A stretch of DNA of 64,000 nucleotides, taken from positions 1-64,000 of IMG/VR virus record IMGVR_UViG_3300024261_000014. One strand, written 5' to 3'. This DNA comes from a virus. Below are positions 60,576 to 64,000 of this stretch, piece by piece. The first letter of the stretch is position 1, and each line of letters opens with the position of its first letter. The notes below the pieces were generated by a model. That model was given only the letters and a program-made list of their open reading frames with translations. It was not told where the DNA came from and made no database searches. Both the position numbers and the translations under genes were made by a program.

Positions 60576-61668
60576 CTAAGACCTCATCTGTGAACTCTAC
60601 ATCATCAATACCAAGTTTTTCTTTGTATTTTAATATAACCTTATCACAAATGATACCATAGACATAGTCTTTCAACTCATCATCTTTGGTAATTAACTCT
60701 TCCCAATCCTTAGATAAAAACTTATGGTCTTTACCATTTTGGTCTGTAAGAGTGTACCACGCACCAGCTGATTTAATCAACTTATGTTCTTTTAGAACAG
60801 TCAACCAAGCTCCGTAGTTATCAATACCCCTATCAAAGTACATATGATAATCTGTATGTCTTAAAGGTGGCCCAAGTCTGTTTTTCACAATCTGTGCTCT
60901 ACACTTCATACCTAATACATTTTTTGCTGTATCTTTAATTTGTCCCATGTTCTTCAACCTAATTCTTGTTGAAGCGTGGAATGGTAATGCTTTCCCACCA
61001 CTTGTTGTCCAAGGGTCTCCGAACATTACTCCGAGTTTTTGTCTTAATTGATTAGTAAACACAAGTGCCACTCGTTGTCTACCAACCATTTGAGTAATCT
61101 TTCTCAATGCTTTTGATATAATGATTGCTTTTGCAGTTGCCCAACCATCTTTATCAAAATCTGCTTCCAACTCTACTTTCGTAGTAGCTGCAGCGAGTGA
61201 ATCAACCATAATAGTTACTAATCTATCTTTATCTGATTCCCTAACTTTAGTTATAATTTCTACAATCGCTTCAAATATATCTTCTACTGTCTCTAAGTGT
61301 AGATATAACATCTTACCCATATCAATTCCAATCACTTCCATAAACTCTTGAGAAACTGAAGTTTCAGTATCTATATAAACTGCAACCCCACCTTTCTTTT
61401 GAGTTTCTGCTAAGATGTGTGCACCAAGTAGAGATTTTCCACTTGATTCTAATCCATTGATTTCTGTAATTCTTCCAACTGCAATTCCACCATTTGGTCT
61501 ATTTGATATAGCCAAATCTAACATAGAACTACCTGTTGAGATAAAATCTGTGATATCCGTAGGTGTATTATCTGTACCATCCAGAAAGTATGCTACTTTA
61601 TTATCTTTAAATTTCTTATTTAAACTGTCGGCCAAAGTATCGGCCAATACATCGTGTACTGATGACAT
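60568..61668 (-). CDS. recA: RecA/UvsX recombinase
   Basis: STGS..LD, GRITEINGLESSGKS, IDTE, VDSLAA, TNQLR, GGKALPF. Confidence 0.95.
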   Translation of the reverse strand: MSSVHDVLADTLADSLNKKFKDNKVAYFLDGTDNTPTDITDFISTGSSMLDLAISNRPNGGIAVGRITEINGLESSGKSLLGAHILAETQKKGGVAVYIDTETSVSQEFMEVIGIDMGKMLYLHLETVEDIFEAIVEIITKVRESDKDRLVTIMVDSLAAATTKVELEADFDKDGWATAKAIIISKALRKITQMVGRQRVALVFTNQLRQKLGVMFGDPWTTSGGKALPFHASTRIRLKNMGQIKDTAKNVLGMKCRAQIVKNRLGPPLRHTDYHMYFDRGIDNYGAWLTVLKEHKLIKSAGAWYTLTDQNGKDHKFLSKDWEELITKDDELKDYVYGIICDKVILKYKEKLGIDDVEFTDEVLGD

Positions 61669-61688
61669 TCATTTCTCCTTATCAAATT

Positions 61689-61756
61689 GTTAATGTGTAG
61701 TTAGGGAATACAATAACACCCATCTCTACTTTTGTTGTATGTTGCCACACATTAAC
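61689..61756. other. Long interrupted intergenic stem-loop between ssb and recA
   Basis: GTTAATGTGT/ACACATTAAC outer stem; ATACAATAA/TTGTTGTAT inner stem. Confidence 0.6.
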
Positions 61757-61768
61757 GGGGGTTTTTAT

Positions 61769-62542
61769 TTACGAGTTAAATAACTCATCAAAAGCATCAC
61801 CAGTATTACTTACCTTAGATTTGTCAAGTTCAGCTACATTTCCTCCAACGGCTTTTGCTGTTGTTGATACTTCTGAATCTTCTTCAGTTGCATCACCATC
61901 AGGGTTTAACCATGTATTTAGTATATCTGTCATATCATCGTATGATAACTCTTGATAGATTTCTGTAATGTCCTGTTGTTTCTTTACTTTTTCAAGTATA
62001 TCAGGCTCATCAGAAATCGGTGATTGATTAGGTTTGACGCGAATGTTAGTTTTTGGATAACTTGCTCCACTCTCCTCAGCTGAGATAAACTCTACCGAAA
62101 TATCACGACCATTAATTGGGTCTGTAATATCACCATAATCAGGGTCTGCGATTACTGAAAGAAGTTCTTGATAAACTGTCTTTCCAAATCCCCAAAACTT
62201 CACACCTTGCGATTCTTCACCACGAACTATAACTGGAGCAAAAGTTCTCATCTTTGCTTCAAGTTTACGTGATAACTGATAATCTTCCTTATTGCCACTT
62301 GCTTTTAGTTTTTGAGCAAACTCTTCAATAGGGTCTGGTCTACCAAAAGAAATTGGTGATAAATAAGAGCGATTGCTCAGATTGTAGTGAAAAAACAATT
62401 CAATAAAAGGATTATCTTTATTGAATGAGTAAGGTACGATACGAATTTGAGTTTTACCTGGTTGTGGTTTCCAAAGACTGGAAGTCCGATTGTTAGTTGT
62501 TTGTAACTGCCCGAGGCGTTTTTTTATTGCGTTTAAATCCAT
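61769..62542 (-). CDS. Single-stranded DNA-binding protein (gp32-like)
   Basis: WKP..G...IRIVP, PF.E..FHY, DP, WGFGK, DITD...GRD, acidic tail ending FDELFNS. Confidence 0.85.
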   Translation of the reverse strand: MDLNAIKKRLGQLQTTNNRTSSLWKPQPGKTQIRIVPYSFNKDNPFIELFFHYNLSNRSYLSPISFGRPDPIEEFAQKLKASGNKEDYQLSRKLEAKMRTFAPVIVRGEESQGVKFWGFGKTVYQELLSVIADPDYGDITDPINGRDISVEFISAEESGASYPKTNIRVKPNQSPISDEPDILEKVKKQQDITEIYQELSYDDMTDILNTWLNPDGDATEEDSEVSTTAKAVGGNVAELDKSKVSNTGDAFDELFNS

Positions 62543-62658
62543 TTCATATTCTCCATTTGTTTATGTTTATTTTTCATTTGTCAATCAAGTGTAACCTTGA
62601 TACAATAATATATATCAACTAAATTTGCTAAAATGTAATATAGTTTAAGTTTTTTATA

Positions 62659-62730
62659 AAAAAAAAAGGTTCATTTCGTTTTTAAGTCTATCATAAGTGG
62701 AAACTAAAAATCGGTGAGAACCTTTTTTTA
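62659..62730 (-). terminator. Long stem-loop flanked by A/T tracts after the ncRNA
   Basis: AAAAAGGTTC...GAACCTTTTT with inner stem. Confidence 0.6.
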
Positions 62731-62734
62731 TAAG

Positions 62735-63140
62735 TTGGAAATTTTAGGGAATGTAGGATTTGCATACCTACAACTTTCTGCTCAGATTTTATTGCCCTTG
62801 TACCTAACACCCATCAGTTACGATGATTCTCCTCAAGATGGTTAATCTCATTGGAGTGAGTACAATCTCTGTGTCAGTGCCTTATCTCTCTGAGTTTAGA
62901 TTGATTCAGCCACAAGTTGGGATTTCAGTTTTACCCTTACCCAAAACAAGGTCTAAAGAATTGCTTCTTTATGTTTTCAGAAAGTACATTAGATGATTGA
63001 TGTCTCAACTACTTAACCATTCGGCTTTGTAGATTCACCACGAACTCATCTTGGATTACCTTATGGGCTTCTAAAGTCTACCCATTATTCGGTCAATTCC
63101 ATACGAAGTTAATTACTCCTCGTACTTTTCAAAAATCCAA
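62735..63140 (-). ncRNA. Large structured non-coding RNA (possibly ROOL-like; family uncertain)
   Basis: ORF-free, more GC-rich than its flanks, many local and long-range helices, GCAA tetraloop, closing stem, downstream terminator. Confidence 0.65.
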
Positions 63141-63351
63141 TTTGTCAAAAAACTATGTATCTCATTTGATACATTAATATATATGTATATAAATTCCCAA
63201 AATACATTTTATTTTAAAAAAAAACGTAAATAACTGAAAAAAACTTGATATTTATATATAGTTAACCGATTATGAGTTAATTCAAACGCGTTGTTTTGGA
63301 GTGTATTGTTTTAATACACCCGTACTATATCATAATGATACACTTGTGTAA

Positions 63352-63759
63352 CTATTTGTTCCAATCCTTCACATTTACTACCTGGTGTATTTTAGTAGGT
63401 ATTATATTCAAACCTGTTTCGTTGGTTAGTAGTAAAGTATTTTGATATTCACTCCAATCAACATTAAAGCTCTTATCTAAGATTCCTTTATTCTTTGCTC
63501 TGATAACTTCATTCAAAGCGTTAATAGTATATAGAGTATTACTCTGTTTCTTTCTATGTAGTGAAATAGTGTTCTCTATGTTCTCCTCGTAATTATCAAT
63601 AAACTCGACATTATAGGTACAAATTAATTGGGTTTCTTCCTTCATATTCTGAAAAATGTATATTTTATCATAAAGTATATCGTTACACTCTATAATAACA
63701 TCAAGTGTTTCTGGCAATCGAGATAAGCGGGTAAATGTACATAATAATTGAGTTCTCAT
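63352..63759 (-). CDS. Hypothetical protein
   Basis: MRTQLLCTF...LHRKKQSNTLYTINALN; intact ORF. Confidence 0.7.
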   Translation of the reverse strand: MRTQLLCTFTRLSRLPETLDVIIECNDILYDKIYIFQNMKEETQLICTYNVEFIDNYEENIENTISLHRKKQSNTLYTINALNEVIRAKNKGILDKSFNVDWSEYQNTLLLTNETGLNIIPTKIHQVVNVKDWNK

Positions 63760-63760
63760 A

Positions 63761-64000
63761 TTATTTCCTAAATGCTCCTAATAAACCAGACCAATCGTTT
63801 GAAACTAATTTATAATCTGATTTAACTCCGGGTACTCCATCCATTTGTCCATCCGCAAATCGAATCGTTATGATAACAGTCCCAATACCACCAACGTCTT
63901 GTGTACCAACATCTAATAAAAATTGATATCCAGATTTTGATTCTTTTAATTCATAATCAGCAATAAATTCTTCAGGTCCCATTTTTTTATTATAAAGTTT
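63761..64000 (-). CDS. C-terminal end of a hypothetical protein that probably starts outside the window
   Basis: Frame open to the window edge. Confidence 0.5.
   Translation of the reverse strand, partial: KLYNKKMGPEEFIADYELKESKSGYQFLLDVGTQDVGGIGTVIITIRFADGQMDGVPGVKSDYKLVSNDWSGLLGAFRK

What the first reader, a model, noticed from the sequence alone, without database searches (positions are those of the whole stretch)
62735..63140. ~400 nt ornate structured RNA upstream of the replication operon
Seen on the minus strand: closing stem TTGGATTTT/AAAATTTCCAA; hairpins TACGAGG/CTTCGTA, ATGGGT/GCCCAT, TAAAGAA-GCAA-TTCTTTA and TGTAGG/CCTACA; long-range complements AAAGTAC/GTACTTT, ATGGTTAA/TTAACCAT, CAAGATG/CATCTTG, CTCAGA/TCTGAG and TTGTAC/GTACAA, some crossing or mutually exclusive; no ORF; terminator-like hairpin downstream. 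Known: ROOL and GOLLD are large phage-associated RNAs of unclear function. Inference: a compact ROOL-like RNA or a new class. The family resemblance is from memory only.
Basis: partly seen in the sequence, partly recalled or inferred. Interest (0 to 1): 0.7.

Follow-up and report, generated by a model that had tools for sequence, protein, structure and literature searches.

The report
Two-core manA-type phage RNA gene
The flagged gap holds a real, intricately folded RNA of about 408 bases, found in ocean RNA libraries; it is an enlarged form of the known phage "manA" RNA with a second manA-like core built into the first, so it is neither a new class nor a ROOL/GOLLD relative.

Summary
Window 62735-63142 (minus strand) encodes a conserved structured RNA. 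On 60 non-redundant homologs, 89 nested pairs are 97.8% paired and 67 show compensatory changes. Two tertiary pairings also covary.

It is not a new class. Rfam's manA model (RF01745) matches 62748-62944 at 53.1 bits, just under the 55.2 cut-off. It matches the same part in 18 of 18 relatives tested, 13 of them above the cut-off. In 5 of 18 it also matches the 5' half.

The layout is one manA RNA whose penultimate hairpin has become a three-way junction carrying a second manA-like core. The loop pair that corresponds to manA's L8 and L9 loops is kept and covaries.

The RNA has a copy of the gp32 promoter-like box and its own terminator hairpin. It is missing from close relatives that keep gp32. 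Contigs of 18 metatranscriptome runs hold it, so it looks like a gene of its own, not a gp32 leader.

A 2026 preprint reports that manA RNAs form RNA-only cages in vitro. Self-assembly is therefore my inferred mechanism.

One RNA contig joins the 3' end to the 5' end head to tail. This could be a circle or a reverse-transcription artefact, and I could not decide.

Earlier agents of this scan reported the same two-core family on other genomes.

The parts
63143..63183 (-). Promoter-like region: the 18-mer TATATATTAATGTATCAA (63166-63183), the palindrome GTATC..GATAC, then AGTTTTTTGAC ending next to the RNA's 5' end
   Evidence: The 18-mer occurs twice in the 64-kb window with 0 mismatches, here and before gp32. 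The block is conserved in homologs. Promoter function is inferred.
62735..63142 (-). The RNA body, 408 nt (two-core manA-type RNA)
   Evidence: The X2 contig ends at 63142 and 62735; the X3 contig covers 62736-63122. 89 nested pairs are 97.8% paired and 67 have compensatory change.
63130..63140 (-). P0 closing stem, 5' strand; it pairs with 62736-62745
   Evidence: Own against cross duplex energies, own better in 46 of 60. Coordinates.
62991..63125 (-). Outer (5') manA-like core: H1 hairpin, GGAAU strand of the closing helix (63096-63100), H3/H4 module (UGACCGAAUAA-hairpin-AUAAGGUAA), and H5 junction with the GUGGUG hairpin (H6), a variable hairpin and H7
   Evidence: All helices covary. Rfam manA matches this core in 5 of 18 relatives; the best is L162 at 28.4 bits, E 5.7e-5 when searched alone. 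No Rfam match in the window's own copy at E up to 10.
62978..62985 (-). H8 5' strand (pairs with 62773-62780): base of the three-way junction that replaces manA's penultimate hairpin
   Evidence: 6 of 8 pairs with compensatory change, 98.1% paired.
62953..62972 (-). H8b hairpin. Its loop (62960-62964) pairs with the H18 loop (62762-62765); this is the counterpart of manA's L8-L9 pair
   Evidence: Columns 223:440 AU 31/GC 27/UA 2; 224:439 CG 46/UA 13/AU 1; 225:438 GC 55/AU 5; none unpaired.
62796..62951 (-). H9 (62947-62951 with 62796-62800) enclosing the inner manA-like core: H10 with its invariant loop, H11/H12, and H13 junction with H14-H17
   Evidence: Covariation. The Rfam manA match 62748-62944, 53.1 bits, covers this core plus H18.
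62889..62894 (-). Pseudoknot PK1: the H12 loop CUCAGA pairs with UCUGAG at 62781-62786
   Evidence: 360 of 360 cells paired; 3 of 6 pairs with compensatory change.
62748..62771 (-). H18 hairpin (62753-62771) and the AUUCC strand of the closing helix (62748-62752), which pairs with 63096-63100
   Evidence: Column pair 67:453 is G-C in 50 sequences and A-U in 10 (window included), none broken.
62655..62729 (-). Terminator-type long hairpin with a covarying stem, a nearly invariant loop of about 36 nt, and a U run
   Evidence: Fold -16.6 kcal/mol, z -3.35. An exact 15-mer of the loop occurs once in each of 120 of 225 loci; every match I checked lies in an RNA-bearing locus. It is not part of the abundant contigs in X2 and X3.
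62576..62614 (-). Second copy of the promoter-like box (62597-62614) and TTGACAAAT (62576-62584), in front of gp32
   Evidence: and the sequence read.
61769..62542 (-). gp32-type single-strand DNA-binding protein gene (a neighbour, not part of the RNA)
   Evidence: PF08804, E 4.8e-13. It lies downstream of the RNA in 123 of 134 loci.

Best explanation
Window 62735-63142 (minus strand) is a separate gene for a 408-nt non-coding RNA of the manA class (Rfam RF01745).

Its fold is a complete manA layout: a 5' hairpin, a closing helix, a GAAUAA/UAAGG hairpin module, a three-hairpin junction with a GUGGUG loop, and a last hairpin. The penultimate hairpin has been turned into a three-way junction (H8/H8b/H9). 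That junction carries a second manA-like core.

The RNA is transcribed from a copy of the promoter-like element that also precedes gp32, and it is followed by its own terminator hairpin. A 408-nt species that ends at the foot of the closing stem P0 is assembled as a separate, deep contig in ocean RNA libraries.

Most likely it acts in trans as a self-assembling RNA particle. The loop pair H8b-H18 is the counterpart of the L8-L9' contact that joins manA subunits in the reported cages. It would link copies to each other, and each chain would contribute two cores.

Shown: the fold, the kinship to manA, the nested two-core layout, presence in RNA libraries, and loss in relatives that keep gp32.
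Inferred: the promoter, trimming of the 3' end, action in trans, and self-assembly.
For: Fold:
- RNAalifold on 60 representatives (63-93% identical to the window) gives 88 pairs, 62 with compensatory change.
- My 89-pair structure is 97.8% paired with 67 covarying pairs. Slid controls give 36.6-43.7% paired and 20-27 covarying pairs; 0 of 500 shuffles reach it.

Kinship to manA:
- Inner core plus H18 scores 53.1 bits, E 1.4e-12 in the window.
- 18 of 18 relatives score 44.7-68.1 bits, 13 of 18 at or above 55.2.
- A second manA match lies on the 5' core in 5 of 18 relatives (28.4, 25.0, 22.3, 22.2, 19.7 bits).
- In L162 that match aligns model positions 1 to about 127, including the GACG loop, GGGAU, UGACUGAA, UAAAGU and GUGGUG.
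- My covariance model of the 5' core finds the inner core as its best non-self match: 9.2 bits, E 0.02 in 601 nt.

Nesting:
- H8, H9 and the closing helix are long-range and covary.

L8-L9 counterpart:
- It covaries with no unpaired cells at three columns.
- In P-SSM2's canonical manA (181.6 bits) the two corresponding loops carry CUGUA and UACAG (sequence read).

Own gene:
- The promoter box is duplicated.
- 12 of 12 sampled RNA-less gp32 loci have no manA match.
- L014 (gp32 82% identical) and L037 have 233- and 96-nt gaps before gp32.
- 11 of 134 loci have other genes downstream, such as Hsp20 and Mom-like.

RNA libraries:
- 18 runs on record as RNA, within the 16 study codes of all 20 listed runs, hold the stretch.
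- In X2 an exact-match RNA contig has depth 1303 against 21.8 for the exact-match gp32 contig. In X1 the figures are 444.5 against 85.9.

Assembly:
- The preprint 10.64898/2026.07.01.735769 reports 60-mer, decamer and octamer manA particles held by L5-L7', L8-L9' and related contacts (passages and section 8 read).
Against: - The window's own Rfam score (53.1) is below the gathering score (55.2). The gathering-threshold scan of the window finds nothing.
- The window's 5' core gets no Rfam match at E up to 10.
- My 5'-core model scores P-SSM2's manA at only 3.0 bits, E 3.5.
- Plain sequence alignment of the cores is not above shuffles: z 0.99 and -0.49.
- gp32 follows in 123 of 134 loci, and one X1 contig runs from gp32 through the terminator into the RNA (61609-62911). 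Co-transcription and a cis role are therefore not excluded.
- Contig depth is a poor measure of expression, and contigs show neither strand nor ends with certainty (warnings printed).
- Self-assembly has been reported only for one-core manA RNAs, in vitro, in an unreviewed preprint. Nothing here tests it for the two-core form, and the covarying loop pair could equally be intramolecular.
- X12 contigs run into adaptor at 63153, 11 nt upstream of the proposed 5' end.
Confidence: 0.6

Rival explanations
1. Cis-acting leader or riboswitch of the gp32 operon. The folded RNA senses a ligand or a protein (for instance gp32 itself) and decides whether transcription stops at the hairpin 62661-62729 or reads on into gp32.
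For: - manA was first proposed as a riboswitch candidate in 5' UTRs (PMC2864571, passages read).
- gp32 follows on the same strand in 123 of 134 loci.
- An intrinsic-terminator-type hairpin sits between the RNA and gp32.
- An X1 contig bridges gp32, the terminator and the RNA's 3' half.
- PMC10690425 lists 12 candidate structured RNAs directly upstream of GP32 genes (passages read).
Against: - gp32 has its own copy of the promoter-like box downstream of the terminator.
- I found no alternative pairing between the RNA's 3' strand and the terminator stem. The stem varies freely while the RNA does not.
- Relatives keep gp32 without the RNA.
- 11 of 134 loci have other genes downstream.
- In X2 and X3 the RNA assembles separately from gp32, and in X2 at about 60 times the gp32 contig's depth.
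Confidence: 0.2
2. The mature RNA is a covalently closed circle of about 409 nt. It would be cut at the foot of P0 and ligated. This could hold together with either functional reading.
For: - In run X2 one 439-nt contig at depth 1303 joins 62735 back to 63142 ('goes back 408') with one extra letter. Its two ends overlap by 30 nt, as a circular assembly path would.
- P0 brings the two ends together.
- Earlier scan notes report head-to-tail RNA contigs for other phage RNAs. Those notes are unchecked.
Against: - Seen in 1 of 4 runs laid.
- A few chimeric reads are enough to close an assembly path at that depth.
- One untemplated letter at the joint is what reverse transcriptase adds before switching template (my knowledge, from no call).
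- The 5' end lies in a TTGACAAAT motif that also stands before gp32. That suggests a primary, triphosphate 5' end, which is not a ligase substrate (inference).
- No RNA ligase or RtcB is found in the 83.9-kb record, which is only 41% complete. The PF09511 search matched nothing in its control genomes either, so that one is uninformative.
Confidence: 0.12
3. A new RNA class unrelated to known families (ROOL/GOLLD-like).
For: The size and ornate fold. No Rfam family reaches its gathering score in the window.
Against: Significant, full-length manA matches in the window and in 18 of 18 relatives. The second core also matches manA in 5 of 18. No ROOL or GOLLD match at E up to 10.
Confidence: 0.02

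Closest known systems
manA RNA motif (Rfam RF01745; Weinberg et al. 2010, PMC2864571; assemblies in bioRxiv 10.64898/2026.07.01.735769); canonical example Prochlorococcus phage P-SSM2 142837-143034
   Same: - Same order of elements: 5' hairpin, closing helix, UGACYGAAUAA-hairpin-UAAGGU module, three-hairpin junction with a GUGGUG loop, last hairpin with a GGUAAU..AAUCC-type loop, and a complementary loop pair between the penultimate and last hairpins.
- Marine phage origin.
- Rfam matches.
   Different: - About 408 nt instead of about 190.
- A second core (hairpin, GAAU-type module, three-hairpin junction) sits inside the penultimate hairpin.
- An extra closing stem P0 and an extra pseudoknot (PK1).
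- Its own terminator hairpin with an invariant loop.
- It lies before gp32 in a non-T4-like phage lineage. By gp32, the nearest isolates are Microcystis phage Mel-JY01 at 46% and Flavobacterium phage immuto at 39%. In P-SSM2, manA lies between regA and a purL-like gene.
ROOL and GOLLD large RNAs
   Same: Large, ornate, phage-associated non-coding RNAs. That they form RNA-only multimeric cages is my recollection, from no call.
   Different: No sequence or structure match at E up to 10 against all Rfam families. The RNA here is smaller, and its family is manA.
T4 gene 32 mRNA leader pseudoknot (autoregulation by gp32), as summarised in PMC10690425 (passages read)
   Same: A structured RNA upstream of a gp32 gene.
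   Different: The T4 element is a small pseudoknot in the mRNA leader, directly 5' of the gene according to that paper. Here a 408-nt RNA ends 192 nt before the start codon, with a terminator hairpin and a second promoter-like box in between.

Membership tests
manA RNA (RF01745) | Covariance-model score at or above Rfam's gathering score (55.2 bits) | tested here: not met
   The window scores 53.1 bits, E 1.4e-12, full model 1-192, and gives 0 matches at gathering threshold. Relatives: 13 of 18 at or above 55.2, range 44.7-68.1. This is a statistically clear but divergent member.
manA RNA (RF01745) | Core architecture: 5' hairpin; closing helix; GAAUAA/UAAGG hairpin module; three-hairpin junction with a GUGGUG loop; two 3' hairpins | tested here: met
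   The outer layer has all elements in order, each with covariation. The penultimate hairpin is replaced by the junction H8/H8b/H9.
manA RNA (RF01745) | Complementary loops of the penultimate and last hairpins (L8-L9) | tested here: met
   H8b loop with H18 loop: three columns with compensatory change and no unpaired cells. In P-SSM2 the loops read CUGUA and UACAG. The labels L8 and L9 are the preprint's; I assigned them to these hairpins by position.
manA RNA (RF01745) | Location in the 5' UTR of a gene (cis-regulatory reading of Weinberg 2010) | tested here: inconclusive
   The RNA lies upstream of gp32 in 123 of 134 loci, but is separated from it by a terminator hairpin and a second promoter-like box.
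manA RNA (RF01745) | Self-assembly into closed oligomers (preprint) | not testable with these tools
   Needs in vitro transcription, size-exclusion chromatography and cryo-EM.
ROOL / GOLLD | Match to the Rfam covariance models of these families | tested here: not met
   No such match among the 9 matches at E up to 10 in 62500-63400. None at gathering score in the whole window.
Riboswitch | An expression platform whose terminator competes with the aptamer, and ligand binding | tested here: inconclusive
   A terminator hairpin is present. I saw no conserved alternative pairing with the RNA body in the alignment. Ligand binding is not testable here.
Circular RNA | A 3'-5' junction present in the RNA itself and not made by reverse transcription | tested here: inconclusive
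   One head-to-tail contig in 1 of 4 runs. Raw reads were not available, and no ligase gene is in the partial record.

The most novel reading that the evidence does not exclude
The 408-nt RNA is cut out at the foot of its closing stem and closed into a circle. In that form, with two manA cores per chain, it builds RNA-only shells in infected cells through the retained L8-L9-type loop contact. That would be a circular, cage-forming RNA encoded by a DNA phage.
Probability: 0.08. Interest if true: 0.9.

Novelty: new variant of a known kind. Interest (0 to 1): 0.55.

Why it matters
manA went from an orphan riboswitch candidate (2010) to an RNA reported to form capsid-like RNA-only cages in vitro (2026 preprint). 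Its role in cells is still unknown.

This variant helps in three ways. First, it comes with a copy of the gp32 promoter-like box and its own terminator hairpin, and close relatives keep gp32 without it. That argues the family can act as a free RNA and not only as an mRNA leader. Second, it is recovered from many ocean RNA libraries, so it is unlikely to be a silent relic. Third, it is a natural covalent pair of cores that keeps the covarying loop pair used as an inter-subunit contact in the reported cages. That gives structural biologists a ready test of how core number changes assembly geometry.

It also marks a gap in Rfam. Only half of the molecule is modelled, and the window's copy falls just under the threshold.

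Tried and rejected
- A blastn search of the region against 50,697 phage records found no match.
- Plain Smith-Waterman alignment of the two cores with each other and with P-SSM2's manA was not above shuffles. Even the inner core, which Rfam matches, gave only z 2.36, so this test has no power.
- My 5'-core model R1 with default filters found only itself in the window and in L220. With filters off, P-SSM2's manA scored 3.0 bits, E 3.5, at the right place but not significant.
- R1 found nothing in 36 RNA-less gp32 loci.
- A search for head-to-tail junctions in JGI metagenome contigs gave 4 hits. None matched the RNA by nhmmer; they looked like coding sequence by eye. That collection may not hold small RNA contigs.
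- The 3'-core pattern in 185,579 species genomes gave 4 hits. One is the real RNA plus gp32, on a contig binned with a Pelagibacter MAG. The other three gave no nhmmer or manA match, and the one I read lies inside a regulator-like open frame.
- RNA ligase and RtcB searches of the own record were empty. The record is 41% complete, and the PF09511 search matched none of its control genomes.
- Loop-loop covariation between the variable hairpin of the 5' core and the UAACC hairpin of the inner core was absent.
- A strict scan for further covarying column pairs found no other contiguous helix.
- The stretches without cover between the RNA and gp32 in X2 and X3 are not used as evidence.
- Literature: three searches listed no paper on a two-core or nested manA. 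The preprint's text holds no 'tandem', 'nested' or 'circular'.
- Supplementary tables were closed. Those of PMC10690425 (10,006 candidate RNAs from IMG/VR) and of PMC2864571 may already list this RNA under another name.

Full report
WHAT IS THERE

The finding lies on the minus strand between a 135-aa ORF of unknown family (63352-63759) and a replication block. That block holds gp32-type SSB (61769-62542, PF08804), RecA, a 5'-3' exonuclease and a DnaB-type helicase. The window is part of an 83.9-kb IMG/VR virus record judged 41% complete, with about 33% G+C. By gp32, the nearest isolates are Microcystis phage Mel-JY01 (46%) and Flavobacterium phage immuto (39%), so this is not a T4-like cyanophage.

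IS IT REAL?

Folding the single sequence is only suggestive: z -1.75 on the minus strand and 0.03 on the plus strand. Relatives decide the matter.

- A gp32 search of IMG/VR returned 80 loci of 595 relatives.
The two motifs almost always lay about 165 nt apart in the same contig.
- nhmmer found the region in 166 of 217 loci, 146 of them full length.
- 145 extracted copies gave 99 unique sequences. I kept 60 representatives under 94% identity, which are 63-93% identical to the window.

On their alignment (A1), RNAalifold predicts 88 pairs, 62 with compensatory change. A structure of 89 nested pairs in 18 helices is 97.8% paired. 67 of its pairs have changes on both sides. No shuffle in 500 reaches this, and sliding the 3' partners by 1-3 columns drops it to 36.6-43.7% paired and 20-27 such pairs. 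The closing stem P0 sits in gappy columns, so I tested it by duplex energy. Each sequence's own ends pair better than mixed ends in 46 of 60.

WHAT IS IT?

At gathering thresholds Rfam finds nothing in the window. An E-value scan of 62500-63400 finds manA (RF01745) at 62748-62944, full model, 53.1 bits against a cut-off of 55.2, E 1.4e-12. The other eight matches have E of 0.35 or more and are noise. No ROOL, GOLLD, RNase P, tmRNA or intron model appears.

In 18 relatives the same part scores 44.7-68.1 bits, and 13 of 18 pass the cut-off. In 5 of 18 a second, separate manA match lies on the 5' half. The best of these is L162, at 28.4 bits and E 5.7e-5 when searched alone. It aligns model positions 1 to about 127 to the 5' half, element by element: a hairpin with the GACG loop, GGGAU, UGACUGAA, UAAAGU and the GUGGUG hairpin.

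I built a covariance model of the 5' half (R1). Its best non-self match is the inner core: 9.2 bits, E 0.02 in 601 nt. Its score on P-SSM2's canonical manA is not significant: 3.0 bits, E 3.5. Plain alignment has no power here. The two-core reading therefore rests on three things: the Rfam matches, the shared order of short motifs read directly in the sequences, and the covariation-supported topology.

TOPOLOGY

The GGAAU at 63096-63100 follows the first hairpin. It pairs with AUUCC at 62748-62752, which follows the last hairpin. The middle pair is G-C in 50 sequences and A-U in 10, the window among them, and is never broken. This is manA's closing helix.

Inside it come the 5' core and then a long-range helix H8 (62978-62985 with 62773-62780). 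H8 opens into a three-way junction. One arm is the small hairpin H8b (62953-62972). The other arm is H9 (62947-62951 with 62796-62800), which encloses the second core. After H8 comes the last hairpin H18.

The molecule is thus one manA whose penultimate hairpin carries an inserted second core. The Rfam match in the window spans the inner core plus H18, because those are contiguous.

TERTIARY PAIRS

Two tertiary pairings covary.
- PK1 joins the loop of the inner core's H12 (62889-62894) to the strand between H9 and H8 (62781-62786). It is 100% paired.
- PK2 joins the H8b loop (62960-62964) to the H18 loop (62762-62765). In the consensus of the family it reads AACGAU with AUCGUU.

P-SSM2's manA has CUGUA and UACAG at the corresponding loops.

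The preprint of Ren et al. (bioRxiv 10.64898/2026.07.01.735769; I read the passages on manA and section 8) reports that manA RNAs form a 60-subunit icosahedral-like cage, decamers and octamers. All are built from pentamers held by intermolecular kissing loops, including L8-L9'. I equate H8b and H18 with L8 and L9 by position. That mapping is mine.

A GENE OF ITS OWN?

- The 18-mer TATATATTAWTGTATCAA occurs exactly twice in the window, 24 nt upstream of the RNA's 5' end and again in front of gp32. Each copy is followed by a short palindrome and TTGACAAAT.
- Downstream of the RNA lies a long hairpin with a U run. Its stem covaries while its loop is almost invariant.
- A 15-mer of that loop is found once in each of 120 of 225 loci; every match I checked lies in an RNA-bearing locus.
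- Relatives with gp32 at 67-82% identity lack the RNA: 0 of 36 by R1 and 0 of 12 by Rfam.
- L014 keeps the AT-rich box and a diverged copy of the hairpin, but not the 408-nt body.
- In 11 of 134 loci the next gene is not gp32. Examples are Hsp20 in L096 and a Mom-family protein in L179.

RNA DATA

Eighteen runs on record as RNA hold the stretch; the 20 listed runs carry 16 study codes. I laid the contigs of four runs on 61500-64000.
- X2: an exact-match contig of the RNA has depth 1303. The exact-match gp32 contig has 21.8 and the upstream ORF contig 7.95.
- X1: 444.5 for the RNA contig against 85.9 for a contig that runs from gp32 through the terminator into the RNA's 3' half.
- X3: one contig covers 62736-63122.
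- X12: contigs run into sequencing adaptor at 63153 and at 62781.

The tool warns that contig depth cannot rank genes and that contigs show no strand or true ends. I take from this only that the RNA is present in many RNA libraries and assembles apart from its neighbours.

THE UNEXPLAINED JOINT

The X2 contig is circularly permuted. It joins 62735 back to 63142 with one extra letter, and its ends overlap by 30 nt. This fixes both ends of the abundant species at the foot of P0.

It could mean a closed circle. It could also arise from a few template switches of reverse transcriptase between abundant linear molecules. The single untemplated letter and the promoter-like context of the 5' end favour the second. 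It was seen in 1 of 4 runs. The partial record holds no RNA ligase or RtcB. A motif scan for such joints in metagenome contigs found only chance hits.

MECHANISM

I commit to a trans-acting, self-assembling RNA particle. I give about 0.45 to assembly itself, and 0.6 to the whole statement that this is a stand-alone two-core manA RNA. The leader or riboswitch reading keeps about 0.2, because of the strong linkage to gp32 and the X1 read-through contig.

COMPARISON AND NOVELTY

The family is known, and most relatives pass Rfam's threshold on half of the molecule. I did not find the nested second core, the extra closing stem, PK1, the dedicated terminator hairpin or the position before gp32 in a non-T4-like lineage in three literature searches or in the preprint's text. 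Supplements were closed, so an unnamed listing in PMC10690425 or PMC2864571 cannot be excluded.

Earlier agents of this scan described the same two-core manA family on other genomes. I reached the reading before seeing those notes (my note), and they are not independent evidence.

Verdict: a new variant of a known kind.

Noticed in passing
window 62661-62729 (minus); L014:2325-2385: The terminator hairpin behind the RNA has a freely covarying stem but a nearly invariant loop of about 36 nt. An exact 15-mer of the loop occurs once in each of 120 of 225 loci; the matches I checked lie in RNA-bearing loci. The RNA-less relative L014 keeps a diverged copy of the hairpin directly after the AT-rich box. 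The function is unknown.
   Followed up: partly
window 63143-63183 and 62576-62614 (minus): The RNA and gp32 share one promoter-like architecture: TATATATTAWTGTATC, a short palindrome whose arms differ between loci but stay complementary (GTATC..GATAC, ATCAAG..CTTGAT, GGTTAC..GTAAC), then TTGACAAAT or TTAACAA. The palindrome may be an operator.
   Followed up: partly
window 62735/63142; run X2: A metatranscriptome contig of 439 nt, depth 1303, joins the RNA's 3' end to its 5' end with one extra letter. This is either a circle or a reverse-transcription artefact.
   Followed up: partly
L081, L063, L053, L212, L159, L117, L135 (3' of the RNA): In these relatives the usual terminator hairpin is replaced by a different conserved element of about 90 nt, closed by TTGGAAAGT...ACTTTCCAA. 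L081 and L063 gave no Rfam match there at E up to 1.
   Followed up: no
L096:2567-3037; L179:863-1612: In a minority of loci the RNA is followed by other genes: an Hsp20 gene in L096, and in L179 an unassigned 174-aa ORF and then a Mom-family gene. Weinberg 2010 also noted ibpA-type chaperone genes next to manA.
   Followed up: partly
L226 (NHJA01000041.1): A 16.4-kb contig binned with a Candidatus Pelagibacter MAG carries the full RNA and a gp32 gene with 89% identity over its longest matched piece (the match is split in two), at 32% G+C. This is either a mis-binned phage contig or a weak hint at a SAR11 host.
   Followed up: partly
window 63153, 63104, 62781; runs X12 and X1: RNA contigs run straight into sequencing adaptor at these places. 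These are recurrent fragment ends upstream of and inside the RNA. They may be a second 5' end, strong reverse-transcription stops or cleavage sites.
   Followed up: no
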